NCBI GenBank assembly: GCA_963575745.1 | Contig: CAUYUJ010000114.1 | Coordinates: 1,054,001 to 1,118,000, forward strand | Source of the DNA: Prorocentrum cordatum | Taxonomy: Eukaryota | Reading direction: 5' to 3' | Length of the DNA stretch: 64,000 nt | Shown here: piece by piece, positions 59,071 to 62,600 of the stretch | Numbering within the stretch: the stretch's first letter is position 1 | How the letters are laid out: each line of letters begins with the position of its first letter | The notes under the pieces: model-generated | Seen by the model: only the letters and a program-made list of their open reading frames with translations | The model's database searches: none | Told to the model about the DNA's origin: nothing | Made by a program: the position numbers and the translations under genes

Positions 59071-59406
59071 ATGGCCGCGACGAGCAGTGCCGCCGCCGCG
59101 GCGCGGCCGGCCGACCCCGCCCGACTCGCCGGGTGGCTGGCGTCCCGGCGGGCGGCCACGCTCGAGCTGGCCGACGGCAGCGTCTTCGAGGGCTTCTCCT
59201 TCGGGTATGGGGGATCCACGACTGGCGAGGTCGTCTTCAACACGGGCATGGTAGGGTACCCCGAGTCGCTCACGGACCCGTCGTACGCCGGGCAGATCCT
59301 CGTGCTCACGTTCCCGCTGGTGGGGAACTACGGCGTGCCCGACGGCGAGGAGCGCGACGCGCTCGGCCTCCTTCGGCACTTCGAGAGCGAGAGGATACAC
59401 ATCAAG
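59071..59406 (+). CDS. CPSII: Carbamoyl-phosphate synthetase II (GATase-CPS fusion), exon 1
   Basis: ATG at 59071 (context GCCATGG). Translates MAATSS...[17 protein letters not shown]...[39 protein letters not shown]...FESERIHIK, the CPS small-chain N-terminal domain. 336 nt, phase 0, ends AAG|GC. Confidence 0.93.
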
Positions 59407-59627
59407 GCTTATGATGCTCCAGCCTACTTTAGCCTTGATCACCAGAAAGAGTTCCGAGCGCCAGAGAAATACCTTCAAACTTGGGGGTTTTCACGTGTCG
59501 GGCCCTGGGAGACGCTGTTTCGACACTCTTTCGACACTCTTTCGACACTCTTTCGACACTTTTCCGGGTGCTCGAGATTATTTCTGGGATGTGGTCTTTG
59601 AGTACGATGGGAGCATCATGAATCAAG
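59407..59627 (+). other. 221-nt GC-AG intron of CPSII
   Basis: Removing GCTTATG...AATCAAG joins CAC ATC AAG to GCC CTC GTG and restores a continuous CPS frame (IHIK-ALVV). GC donor and AG|G acceptor are typical of dinoflagellates. Confidence 0.88.
59409..59621 (+). mobile_element. 213-bp non-autonomous TIR element (family A, Introner-like) forming the CPSII intron
   Basis: 8-bp direct repeat ATCAAGGC at 59401-59408 and 59622-59629. Ends TTATGATGCTCC and GGAGCATCATGA form a 12-bp inverted repeat with 1 mismatch. Homologous copies elsewhere in the window. Confidence 0.88.
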
Positions 59628-62600
59628 GCCCTCGTGGTCTCGGACTACTCCTTCGTGGCGTCCCACTACACGGCGAGGAGGACGCTGGGGCAGTGGCTCG
59701 AGGCGCACAAGATCCCGGGCATCTACGGTGTGGACACCCGCGCGCTGACCAAGCTCATCCGCATGCACGGCGCGCTGCTGGGCAAGGTCGTCGTGGAGGG
59801 CAGCGCGCCCTCGGCGTCCATGGAGTTCTCGGACCCCAACGAGACGAACCTGGCGGCTACCGTCTCGCGCTCCCAGAAGCAGGTGTTCGTGCCCCCTCCG
59901 CGGGCGGCGGACGGCGCCGCGGCGCCGCTCGCCGAGGAGGCCGAGAAGCAGGTCACCATCCTCGCCGTGGACTGCGGCATGAAGAACAACATCATCCGAT
60001 ACTTCGTGGAATGCCTCCGCGTCAGGCTGGTCGTGGTGCCCTGGGACTACGATTTTACAAAGGACGAGTTTGATGGCCTATTCTTGAGCAACGGACCTGG
60101 GAACCCCTTGATGTGTGAGGTCACGATCGGGCATGTCCGCGAGGTCATGCTGCGCCGGCCAACCTTGCCAATATTCGGCATCTGTTTAGGCAATCAGATC
60201 CTGGGGCTGGCATCTGGAGCCCAGACTTACAAGATGAAGTTCGGCAATCGCGGCATGAACCAGCCCTGCGTGGACATGCGCACCACGCGCTGCTACATCA
60301 CCCCGCAGAACCACGGCTTTGCCATCGATAACGCGTCGCTGGCAGACGGCTGGATGCCGCTCATGATCAACGCCAACGACGGCAGCAACGAAGGAATCAT
60401 CCACAGCGGCCGCCCATGGTTCTCCGTGCAGTTCCACCCCGAGGCGTGCGGCGGCCCCACCGACACGGCGTTCCTCTTCCATCAGTTCCTCAACAACATA
60501 TCCAGCCCGACCCAGCTGGTGACCACGATCCCGTACTCGCCCCCGAAAGTCTATCGCAAGGTGCTCGTCCTCGGCTCGGGCGGGCTCACCATCGGCCAGG
60601 CGGGCGAGTTCGACTACTCTGGCAGCCAGGCCATCAAGGCCCTCCGCGAGTCGGGCGTGTTCTCCATCGTGGTCAACCCCAACATCGCGACCGTGCAGAC
60701 CTCGTGGGGATACGCCGACCGGGTGTACTTCCTGCCCGTCACCGTGGAGTTCGTCACGCAGGTGATCCAGCGCGAGCGCCCCGACGGCATCCTGTGCTCC
60801 TTCGGCGGCCAGACGGCGCTCAACTGCGGCATCAGGCTCGAGGAGGAGGGCGTGCTGTCCAAGTACGACGTCAAGGTGCTGGGAACACCGATCAAGGCAG
60901 TCATCACGACTGAAGACCGCGAGCTGTTCGCCACGGCGGTGGACCACTGCGGATACAAGGTTGCCGAGAGCGCCTGCTGCACGACCGCTGAGGAAGCTGT
61001 GGCCGCCGCGGCAAAGATCGGCTATCCGGTGCTGGTCCGGGCTGCCTTCGCCCTCGGCGGCCTCGGCAGCGGCTTCGCGACGGGAGAGGGCGAGCTGAGG
61101 CGCCTGGTGCAGGTGGCGCTGGTGAACAGCCCGCAGGTCATCGTCGACAAGAGCTTGAAGGGCTGGAAGGAGCTCGAGTACGAGGTCGTGCGCGACGCAA
61201 ATGGCAACTGCATCACGGTGTGCAACATGGAGAACTTCGATCCCATGGGCATCCACACGGGCGACTCCATCGTCATTGCCCCGTCGCAGACGCTCACGAA
61301 CGCCGAGTACTTCAGACTGCGCGAGTGCGCTCTGAAGGTGGTGTGCCATTTGGGTGTGGTGGGTGAGTGCAACATCCAGTACGCGGTAGACCCGCACAGC
61401 CAGGAGTTCCGCATCATCGAGGTCAACGCACGCTTGTCGCGGAGCAGCGCGCTGGCGTCGAAGGCAACCGGGTACCCGCTCGCGTATGTCGCCGCGAAGT
61501 TGGCCCTCGGTGGCGACCTGGTGAGCTTGCGCAACAGCGTCACCAAGTGCACGACCGCTTGCTTCGAGCCGAGCCTCGACTACATTGTCGCGAAGGTTCC
61601 CCGCTGGGACCTGCGCAAGTTCTCGACGGTGGACCAGGAGGTCGGCAGCTGCATGAAGAGCGTAGGAGAGGTGATGTCCATCGGGCGCACCTTCGAGGAG
61701 ACCATCCAGAAGGCTCTCCGCATGGTCGACGAGGCCTGCAGGGGCTTCGACTCCGAGCGCTTCGACCTGGAGCTGGCCCACCGCGGCGAGGACGACACCG
61801 TGCACCTCGTCCGGGCAGAGCTGGTGAGGCCGACGCCGACGCGGGTGTGGGCCATCGCGAAGGCCTTCGAGCTCGGCATGGACGTGGAGGAGGTCCACCG
61901 CCTGACGCGCATCGACCGCTGGTTCCTGTCGAAGCTCATGAACGTCCACGCCGTCAAGCACGCGCTGCAGACCCTCGACCTCCCTGGCCTCGCGGCCAGC
62001 CCGCAGCTGCTCCGCGAGGCCAAGCGGTGCGGCTTCGCGGACCGCCAGATTGCGCCCCTGCTGCACTTCCAGGACGGCGTGGGCGCGCACGGCAAGTGGG
62101 AGTACCACGGCGGCCCGGTGCACGACTACCACGTCCGCGCCCTGCGGAAGAGTGCGGGCATCGTTCCCGTCGTGAAGCAGATCGACACACTCGCGGCCGA
62201 GTTTCCAGCGCACACCAACTACCTCTACCTCACGTACAGCGGCATCGAGAACGACGTGAACCTCGCCAGCCTCGGCTCTCAGGAGGAGGACACAAGCCAG
62301 CCGGAGGCTCCTATCATGGTCATCGGCTGCGGCCCGTACCGCATTGGCAGCAGTGTCGAGTTTGATTGGTGCTCCGTGTCCTGCGTCAAGACGCTGCGAG
62401 GGCTCGGCAAGCGCGCAATCATCATCAATTGCAACCCAGAGACAGTGTCGACAGACTACGACGAATCGGACCGTCTTTACTTCGACGAGCTCAGCCACGA
62501 AACCGTGCTCGACGTCGCCGAGATGGAGCAGTGCGCCGGCATGATCGTGTCTGTCGGCGGGCAGATACCCAACAACTTAGCCATGCGGCTGCATCAGGTC

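What the first reader, a model, noticed from the sequence alone, without database searches (positions are those of the whole stretch)
59401..59629. Transposon-born intron: the TSD of a TIR element supplies both splice sites in CPSII
Seen: the only interruption in a 4.6-kb CDS is a 213-bp element with 12-bp TIRs (TTATGATGCTCC / GGAGCATCATGA) between two copies of ATCAAGGC. The left TSD gives AAG|GC (GC donor) and the right TSD gives AG|G (acceptor), so splicing 59407-59627 removes the element plus one TSD and restores the protein exactly. Three further family members lie at about 15065-15243, 51415-51620 (minus) and 57492-57668. Known: Introners create introns by co-opting TSDs, 8-bp TSDs typify hAT elements, and dinoflagellates use GC donors. 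Inference: an Introner-type family re-intronised a retrogene for a core pyrimidine/arginine enzyme.
Basis: partly seen in the sequence, partly recalled or inferred. Interest (0 to 1): 0.85.

Follow-up and report, generated by a model that had tools for sequence, protein, structure and literature searches.

The report
Transposon insertion spliced as an intron
A small 213-base mobile element has landed inside an otherwise intron-free dinoflagellate gene for carbamoyl-phosphate synthase, and the 8 bases it duplicated on insertion supply both splice sites, a neat but already described way of making new introns.

Summary
A 213-bp element (59409-59621) has 12-nt terminal inverted repeats (11 of 12 complementary). 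It lies between two exact copies of ATCAAGGC and is the only interruption of a 4,623-nt reading frame. That frame encodes a fused small-plus-large-subunit, glutamine-type carbamoyl-phosphate synthase.

Nine cuts would remove the element plus one repeat. Only 59407-59627 gives usable ends (GC...AG, phase 0). Exon 1 then abuts exon 2 with no gap in 15 of 15 homologues and in human CPS1.

A spliced-leader relic upstream marks the gene as a dinoflagellate retrogene. Three diverged copies of the element lie elsewhere in the window. RNA-derived contigs from four public runs carry the exact 221-nt skip.

These contigs cannot show that this copy, rather than an uninterrupted paralogue or allele, produced the joined RNA. 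The hAT label and the claim that the family specialises in making introns are not shown. None of the other three window copies lies in a recognisable gene.

Introners of dinoflagellates that take both splice sites from the target-site duplication, including families with 8-nt duplications, are already in print. Verdict: real, well-formed, new member of a known kind.

The parts
58999..59013 (+). Relic of the dinoflagellate spliced leader (15-nt core, 1 mismatch). A second, degraded copy follows directly at about 59014-59029. It lies 58 nt upstream of the start codon.
   Evidence: 3 matches in the window against 0.07 expected. Sequence read.
59071..59406 (+). Exon 1 coding part (112 codons): N-terminal extension and the first half of the CPSase small-chain domain.
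   Evidence: PF00988 profile positions 1-63; human CPS1 residues 33-116 align to residues 123-206 of the translation.
59401..59408 (+). Left copy of the 8-bp target-site duplication ATCAAGGC. It holds the exon end AAG and the donor GC.
   Evidence: D3.
59407..59627 (+). Proposed GC-AG intron, 221 nt, phase 0. It consists of 2 nt of the left duplication, the element, and 6 nt of the right duplication.
   Evidence: It is the only one of 9 equivalent cuts with G[TCA]...AG ends (offset 6). A joint skipping 221 nt with 8 ambiguous letters appears in X3 and X15 contigs.
59409..59621 (+). Non-autonomous TIR element (MITE-like), 213 bp, with no coding capacity. It folds back on itself.
   Evidence: RNA fold -84.1 kcal/mol, z = -3.3. 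No Rfam match at E<=1.
59409..59420 (+). Left terminal inverted repeat.
   Evidence: I5. Contigs of X2 and X3 become unlike the window exactly before 59409 (table 7).
59431..59439 (+). Internal 9-mer that is the exact reverse complement of 59401-59409 (unexplained).
   Evidence: I6. Chance about 0.005.
59511..59565 (+). Four tandem 11-nt units inside the element.
   Evidence: D1.
59610..59621 (+). Right terminal inverted repeat.
   Evidence: I5.
59622..59629 (+). Right copy of the target-site duplication. It holds the acceptor AG and the first exon-2 bases GC.
   Evidence: D3.
59628..63914 (+). Exon 2 (1,428 codons plus stop): rest of the small-chain domain, GATase with its catalytic Cys, two CPSase large-chain ATP-grasp units, oligomerisation domain and MGS-like domain.
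15065..15242 (+). Diverged family copy (77% to the CPS copy) with a degraded left end. It lies in no recognisable gene.
51416..51612 (-). Diverged family copy (79%).
57492..57666 (+). Diverged family copy (69%), 1.3 kb upstream of the spliced-leader relic of the CPS gene.

Best explanation
A young copy of a short, non-autonomous cut-and-paste transposon inserted into the coding sequence of an intronless retrogene. The element is 213 bp long, has 12-nt terminal inverted repeats and folds back on itself. The gene encodes glutamine-dependent carbamoyl-phosphate synthase in a high-GC dinoflagellate.

Insertion duplicated 8 bp of the target, ATCAAGGC. That octamer ends in AG|GC. The left copy therefore offers exon-AAG|GC-intron and the right copy offers intron-AG|GC-exon. 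The spliceosome can remove the element plus one copy of the duplication (59407-59627, GC-AG, phase 0) and restore the original message base for base.

Shown: the anatomy, the exact restoration of the protein, the retrogene origin, the multi-copy family, and the existence of the joined form in RNA-derived contigs.

Inferred: that this very copy is transcribed and spliced, and that the insertion survived because it happened to be splice-competent. About 1 target site in 6 in this gene would be.
For: Anatomy: (the only TSD-plus-TIR structure in complex sequence in 64 kb; 0 in 20 shuffles).

Splice geometry. Of the 9 equivalent cuts, only offset 6 gives G[TCA]...AG.

Exact restoration:
- The Pfam small-chain domain is split 1-63 and 73-125 across the insert.
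- Human CPS1 residues 33-116 align to residues 123-206 of the exon-1 translation, so its last residue, 208, falls at 118. CPS1 residues from 120 align to exon-2 residue 2 onward, so residue 1 falls at 119.
- Exon 1 ends in the alignment column directly before the one where exon 2 begins, and all 15 homologues aligned run through ungapped.
- Exon 2 is colinear with a 74%-identical homologue.
- The frame is 4,623 nt with no stop.

Retrogene: a spliced-leader relic lies upstream.

Family: three more copies in the window. Contigs whose likeness begins at 59405, 59408 or 59409 have unrelated flanks.

RNA:
- A joint 59400->59622 skips 221 nt, with 8 letters fitting either side. It appears in X3 (labelled RNA by guess, depth 258) and X15 (polyA metatranscriptome, depth 7.5).
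- In X1 and X2, three contigs each carry the last 16 nt of exon 1 directly before 59622.
- No depth at 59483-59564 in any of the 4 runs.
- Unitigs identical to the window on both sides of the insert are present in X1, X2, X3 and X15.

Literature:
- GC donors, and G plus A/C/T after the acceptor, are the dinoflagellate norm. Introner classes take both sites from an AGGH duplication, and 8-nt duplication classes make introns in 5 frames.
- Both sites recruited from the duplication or neighbouring exon sequence is also reported.
Against: All RNA evidence is from assembled contigs, not reads, and from runs whose strain identity with the window is unknown.

At least two haplotypes of the gene are present in each run. 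The junction contig of X3 differs from the window at 3 of 107 bases. X15 also shows a junction with a variant exon-1 end. Uninterrupted paralogues, alleles or other species therefore certainly contribute joined RNA.

The tables are truncated (66 pieces and 24 loose ends not shown), so retained-insert transcripts of this locus cannot be excluded.

A splice-competent target is not rare. 751 of 4,616 sites (16%) in this gene would do, so the geometry alone does not prove function.

No DNA of the same strain was examined. No whole genome is held.
Confidence: 0.7

Rival explanations
1. The insertion is an unspliced, recently disrupted copy or allele (a null). The working enzyme and all joined RNA come from uninterrupted paralogues or alleles. 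The AG|GC geometry is a coincidence.
For: Several haplotypes of the gene are seen in every run. The X3 junction contig has 3 differences in 107 nt from the window. A variant exon-1 end sits at the junction in X15. 16% of target sites would look splice-competent by chance. A perfect duplication and near-perfect repeats mean the insertion is too young for frame decay to show.
Against: No listed contig joins exon 1 or exon 2 of this locus to the element (the list is truncated). Unitigs identical to the window flank the insert on both sides in all 4 runs. The geometry matches published, efficiently spliced dinoflagellate Introners, including GC as a favoured donor.
Confidence: 0.2
2. Same event, different anatomy. 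The element itself begins with AGGC (59405), carries the donor, and makes only a 4-bp duplication (ATCA). The AGGC that opens exon 2 is then a required or preferred target motif and not a duplicated one.
For: AGGY lies directly outside a T[TC]ATG terminus in 3 of 11 termini seen. These are the left end of this copy, the right end of copy 15065-15242 read on the minus strand, and an X15 contig whose likeness starts at 59405. The background is 0.008 per position.
Against: Other copies lose likeness at 59408 or 59409 with flanks ending AGAC or TGCA. The right end of this copy has no inverted counterpart of AGGC. An 8-of-8 repeat needs no extra coincidence, whereas this reading needs a 1-in-256 match of the target to the element end.
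Confidence: 0.12
3. An old, inherited spliceosomal intron, or an assembly artefact, that only resembles a transposon.
For: None found. Orthologous genomic DNA could not be examined, because only mRNA-like or protein records were reachable.
Against: The gene carries a spliced-leader relic and is otherwise intronless over 4.6 kb, so any intron post-dates retroposition. The insert has homologous copies at three unrelated places in the window and in unrelated transcript contigs. It has an exact 8-bp duplication and 11/12 inverted ends.
Confidence: 0.03

Closest known systems
Introner-like elements of Polarella glacialis, class 14/13 (both splice sites from an AGGH duplication) and class 3 (8-nt duplication, introns in 5 frames). 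Source: Roy et al., bioRxiv 10.1101/2020.10.14.339549; the first two of four parts of the text read.
   Same: A dinoflagellate host and a DNA-transposon signature. Both the donor G[ACT] and the acceptor AG are taken from the duplicated target. The exon resumes with GH, the mRNA is unchanged after splicing, and the GC donor is favoured.
   Different: No sequence comparison with those classes was possible because their sequences are not held here. Here only one intronic copy is documented, in a different, GC-rich genome. AGGC sits at positions 5-8 of an 8-nt duplication. That is one of the 5 frames fully inside the octamer, which matches the number reported for class 3 but was not checked against it.
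Introners across eukaryotes (Gozashti et al. 2022, PMC9860276; passages read), such as Symbiodinium microadriaticum 4-bp TSD plus TIR families and Florenciella families that co-opt both sites.
   Same: Non-autonomous elements with TSDs and TIRs whose insertion creates an intron. Cases are reported where both splice sites come from the TSD or neighbouring exon.
   Different: Those families were defined by many near-identical introns in many genes. That criterion is not met or testable here.
'Introner elements' counted in introns of Prorocentrum cordatum and other free-living dinoflagellates (Dougan et al., bioRxiv 10.1101/2022.07.25.501386; passages read).
   Same: A high-GC dinoflagellate genome (59.7% overall and 65.9% in genes there; 57-69% in all but one 2-kb step of this window). 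Introns have inverted repeats at both ends plus short direct repeats.
   Different: That survey used a pattern search (inverted repeats of 8-20 nt, direct repeats of 3-5 nt) without family or mechanism analysis. Its supplementary tables were not seen. Whether the window comes from that species was not tested.
Ordinary MITEs / hAT-type non-autonomous elements
   Same: Small size, terminal inverted repeats, fold-back structure, no coding capacity, multiple diverged copies and an 8-bp duplication.
   Different: The termini (TTATG / TCATG) do not fit the hAT end motif as I recall it. No transposase was found in the window. Several other superfamilies also make 8-bp duplications (from established knowledge, not tested).

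Membership tests
Introner / Introner-like element | Belongs to a multi-copy family of similar sequences | tested here: met
   Three further copies in the window at 69-79% identity. At least four contigs with unrelated flanks in RNA-derived assemblies.
Introner / Introner-like element | Insertion creates a complete intron whose removal leaves the coding sequence unchanged, or nearly so | tested here: met
   GC...AG at 59407-59627. The frame is 4,623 nt with no stop. The protein is contiguous with 15 of 15 homologues and human CPS1.
Introner / Introner-like element | The intron is spliced in vivo from the interrupted copy | tested here: inconclusive
   The exact 221-nt skip appears in contigs of X3 and X15, and junction-compatible loose ends appear in X1 and X2. 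These are contigs only, with several haplotypes and no DNA of the same strain.
Introner / Introner-like element | Many family members constitute introns of unrelated genes | not testable with these tools
   No genome is held. In the window, 1 of 4 copies lies in a recognisable gene. Pfam hits and codon periodicity are absent around the other three. Two metagenome scans and two viral scans found no copy.
MITE (miniature inverted-repeat transposable element) | Short, non-coding, with terminal inverted repeats, a target-site duplication and multiple copies | tested here: met
   213 bp, 11/12 TIR, 8/8 TSD. Fold-back with z = -3.3. Family copies.
hAT superfamily | 8-bp target-site duplication | tested here: met
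   D3. Not exclusive to hAT.
hAT superfamily | Characteristic terminal motif and a hAT transposase with matching ends | tested here: not met
   The termini read TTATG / TCATG and do not fit the motif as recalled. No transposase domain appeared among 132 of the 142 ORFs of 185 aa or more that were scanned at E<=1e-5. An autonomous partner elsewhere in the genome could not be sought.
Dinoflagellate retrogene (recycled trans-spliced mRNA) | Relic spliced-leader sequence just upstream of an intron-poor gene | tested here: met
   The 15-nt core with 1 mismatch lies at 58999-59013, followed by a second degraded copy. The window has 3 matches against 0.07 expected.
Glutamine-dependent carbamoyl-phosphate synthase (fused small plus large chain, no ATCase/DHOase) | Small-chain domain, GATase with catalytic Cys, two ATP-grasp CPSase units, oligomerisation and MGS-like domains | tested here: met
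   Pfam. Cys lies in the motif GICLGNQ where human CPS1 has Ser. The best relatives are 1.5-1.6 kaa dinoflagellate and other alveolate CPS. Its role (pyrimidine versus arginine) was not tested.

The most novel reading that the evidence does not exclude
The family is more than a MITE that was lucky once. It may aim at, or be strongly filtered for, proto-splice sites, with AGGY placed exactly against its TTATG terminus (3 of 11 termini against 0.008 background). Its internal 9-mer complementary to the duplicated target (p about 0.005) may pair with the splice-site region of the pre-mRNA or reflect sequence-guided target choice. That would be an element built to be an intron in a lineage where retrogenes are steadily re-intronised.
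Probability: 0.12. Interest if true: 0.6.

Novelty: new member of a known kind. Interest (0 to 1): 0.35.

Why it matters
The direction of the change is unusually clear here. The gene bears a spliced-leader relic and is otherwise intronless, so it started without introns. The single intron still shows the transposon's inverted ends and an intact duplication. It is a clean teaching example of intron birth in an essential metabolic gene, and a handle on a possibly active element family in a large, GC-rich dinoflagellate genome. It adds no new principle, because the same mechanism has been described at genome scale in Polarella, Symbiodiniaceae and other protists.

Tried and rejected
- Whole-genome census of the family: no genome is held for this window.
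- Scans of metagenome contigs and viral contigs with two conserved element motifs: 0 matches each. This says nothing about absence in nature.
- Earlier notes of this scan: none for the element or the genome.
- Rfam on 59300-59750: no match at E<=1.
- Coding context of the other three copies. Pfam on 132 ORFs gave only a superoxide-dismutase domain elsewhere and two sub-threshold hits. A GC3-periodicity track seemed to show an exon beside copy 15065-15242, but translation and sequence showed it to be a (GAG)n microsatellite, so that reading was rejected.
- Target-site duplications for the three older copies: none recognisable. Their left ends are degraded or different.
- Empty site in orthologous genomic DNA: only proteins and mRNA-like records were reachable, so it was not tested.
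- In one search, the middle of the element (59483-59564) has no cover in any run. This is not used as evidence because it is a tandem-repeat stretch and the runs are contigs.
- Search for print on intron gain in dinoflagellate retrogenes: 2 papers, neither on the point by title or abstract.
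Full report
**What is there.** The window is GC-rich: 57-69% per 2-kb step, except for one low-GC stretch at 18-20 kb. At 59401-59629 the sequence reads as follows:
- ATCAAGGC
- a 213-bp insert that begins TTATGATGCTCC and ends GGAGCATCATGA
- ATCAAGGC again

The two octamers are identical (D3). The insert ends are 11 of 12 complementary, with 10 contiguous exact (I5).

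I scanned the whole window for any exact 8-mer pair flanking an 80-800 bp stretch whose ends are at least 11/12 inverted. Nineteen structures appeared. Eighteen sit in simple or tandem repeats at 17.1-19.4 kb and 30.7-31.2 kb. The only one in complex sequence is this one, and 20 shuffles gave none.

The insert also holds four tandem 11-nt units (D1). It folds as one long hairpin that brings its two ends together: -84.1 kcal/mol, z = -3.3, with 1 of 200 shuffles folding as well. It matches no Rfam family.

**The gene.** Upstream and downstream frames translate to one protein. Pfam finds the CPSase small-chain domain split across the insert. Profile positions 1-63 lie before it and 73-125 after it. 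They are followed by GATase, two large-chain ATP-grasp units, the oligomerisation domain and the MGS-like domain.

The GATase keeps its catalytic cysteine where ammonia-dependent human CPS1 has serine. This is therefore a glutamine-dependent, fused carA-carB type enzyme without ATCase or DHOase. Its closest relatives (up to 78% identity over the first 400 residues of exon 2) are 1.5-1.6 kaa proteins. Those that carry a source name come from dinoflagellates and other alveolates.

With 59407-59627 removed, the frame from the ATG at 59071 to the stop at 63914 is 4,623 nt with no internal stop. It is colinear with a homologue throughout exon 2.

**Exactness of the restoration.** Against human CPS1, residues 123-206 of the exon-1 translation align to chain residues 33-116. 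Its last residue, 208, therefore falls at 118. Residue 2 of exon 2 aligns to 120, so residue 1 falls at 119. In a MAFFT alignment with 15 homologues, exon 1 ends in the column directly before the one where exon 2 begins. All 15 homologues run through ungapped.

**Splice geometry.** Because of the 8-bp repeat, nine different cuts remove the element plus one repeat and give the same product. Only one has G[TCA] at its start and AG at its end: 59407-59627, GC...AG, phase 0, with the exon resuming GC (and read).

This fits what is reported for dinoflagellates. GC and GA donors are frequent, GC is possibly the preferred donor, and G followed by A, C or T is conserved just after the acceptor.

The geometry is not rare by chance. 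751 of 4,616 possible 8-bp targets in this coding sequence (16%) would allow an exact G[TCA]...AG excision with this element, in either orientation.

**Retrogene.** The 15-nt core of the dinoflagellate spliced leader, with one mismatch, lies at 58999-59013. It sits 58 nt before the ATG and is followed at once by a second, degraded copy. The window has 3 matches against 0.07 expected.

Tandem leader relics upstream of an intron-poor gene are the accepted mark of a gene re-integrated from a trans-spliced mRNA. This rests on established knowledge recalled here, not read. The gene therefore began without introns, and the insert is a gain.

**The family.** blastn of the element against the window finds three further copies:
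- 51416-51612 (-), 79% identity
- 15065-15242 (+), 77% identity
- 57492-57666 (+), 69% identity

It also finds a 42-nt right-end fragment at 51298-51339. The copies are 69-81% alike among themselves. They share the right half and the right terminus best.

Their left ends are degraded or different, and no target duplication can be recognised. The family is therefore old, while the CPS copy, with a perfect duplication, is young.

None of the three older copies lies in a recognisable gene. Pfam on 132 of the 142 ORFs of 185 aa or more gave only a superoxide-dismutase domain at 20.6-23.7 kb and two sub-threshold hits. An apparent codon periodicity next to the 15-kb copy turned out to be a (GAG)n microsatellite.

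**RNA evidence.** No whole genome is held. One search for public runs returned 24 rows, 20 of which hold part of a 2-kb stretch around the insert, none with more than half of its sampled words. I laid contigs of four runs from four studies (X1, X2, X3, X15) on 58950-60150 at 90% likeness.
- A joint from 59400 to 59622 skips 221 nt, with 8 letters fitting either side. This is exactly the ambiguity expected from the duplication. It stands in one contig of X3 (labelled RNA by guess, depth 258) and one of X15 (polyA metatranscriptome, depth 7.5).
- In X1 and X2, three contigs each carry, directly before 59622, 16 letters that equal the last 16 bases of exon 1 before the duplication.
- The middle of the element has no cover in any run.
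- Nothing covers the first two bins, 58950-59031, in any run, which fits transcript-derived data.
- Unitigs identical to the window lie on both sides of the insert in all four runs.

**Limits of the RNA evidence.** These are assembled contigs. Every run shows at least two haplotypes of the gene. The X3 junction contig differs from the window at 3 of 107 bases. X15 also shows a junction with a different exon-1 end.

The tables are truncated, with 66 pieces and 24 loose ends not shown. The joined form certainly exists, but part of it comes from uninterrupted relatives. Splicing of this very copy is likely, not proven.

**Other copies in the contigs.** Several contigs become unlike the window exactly at 59409 (X2, X3), 59408 (X15, two contigs) or 59405 (X15). 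They also diverge at 59615 on the right (X1-X3), with unrelated flanks. This confirms the left boundary and shows that near-identical copies sit in other transcribed places.

**Open points.**
- The 9-mer at 59431-59439 is the exact reverse complement of 59401-59409 (I6). Only 25 of 4,616 coding 8-mers occur on either strand of the element, so the chance is about 0.005 post hoc. The motif is part of the family, since diverged versions are present in two other copies. I cannot tell chance from a role in RNA pairing or target choice.
- AGGY lies directly outside a TTATG-type terminus in 3 of the 11 termini whose flanks I could read, against 0.008 per position in the window. This may reflect a preference or filter for proto-splice sites. 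Alternatively, some copies carry AGGY themselves, in which case this insertion would have a 4-bp duplication and an element-borne donor. Copies whose flanks end AGAC or TGCA argue against the second reading.

**Comparison with what is known.**
- The first two parts of the Roy et al. preprint describe Polarella glacialis classes that recruit both splice sites from an AGGH duplication. They also describe a class with an 8-nt duplication that makes introns in five frames and both orientations. AGGH can sit fully inside an octamer at five positions, and here it is the last of them.
- Passages of Gozashti et al. 2022 report families with both sites recruited from the duplication or neighbouring exon.
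- Passages of Dougan et al. report introns with terminal inverted and short direct repeats enriched in a GC-rich free-living dinoflagellate. Their supplementary tables were not seen.
- Passages of Gozashti et al. 2025 add diversity of transposon origins and horizontal transfer.
- A search for dinoflagellate, retrogene and intron gain returned two papers, neither on the point by title or abstract. I therefore found no explicit description of an Introner re-intronising a leader-relic retrogene. It follows directly from the published mechanism.

**Verdict.** The hAT label and the family-level "Introner" status are not established. It is a new member of a known kind, of moderate to low interest.

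Noticed in passing
window 20603-23695 (+): A perfect 15-nt spliced-leader core at 20603-20617 opens a 1,031-aa uninterrupted ORF. Its C-terminus carries an Fe/Mn superoxide dismutase C-terminal domain (E 2.5e-22). This is apparently a second intronless retrogene. The long N-terminal part has no Pfam match.
   Followed up: partly
window 4708-4722 (+): A third, weaker spliced-leader-like match (2 mismatches).
   Followed up: no
window 18000-20000: GC falls to 0.44 in a block of CATG/CATA-type short repeats. These generate many spurious TSD/TIR-like structures.
   Followed up: no
window 17123-17906: Runs of about 12 C and about 12 G, 700-780 bp apart, each next to a copy of GGTTCGAAC. This could be another inverted-end structure or a repeat artefact.
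   Followed up: no
window 15380-15480 and 14900-15030: A long (GAG)n microsatellite and three copies of a ~22-nt unit lie beside family copy 15065-15242. The microsatellite mimics codon periodicity.
   Followed up: yes
window 51620-51690 (-) and 51298-51339 (-): At the left end of copy 51416-51612, a 12-nt motif (TAATCGTCATCC) occurs twice, about 48 nt apart. A separate 42-nt right-end fragment of the family lies about 80 bp away. This suggests nested or rearranged insertions.
   Followed up: no
window 51640-51650 (-) and 57462-57472 (+): Copies 51416-51612 and 57492-57666 share GGTCATT just outside the presumed left terminus. The older subfamily may have a longer or different left end.
   Followed up: partly
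contig of X3 ending its likeness at 59439: A transcript contig joins the first 31 nt of the element directly to sequence resembling the family's right end. This looks like an internally deleted, even shorter derivative of the family.
   Followed up: no
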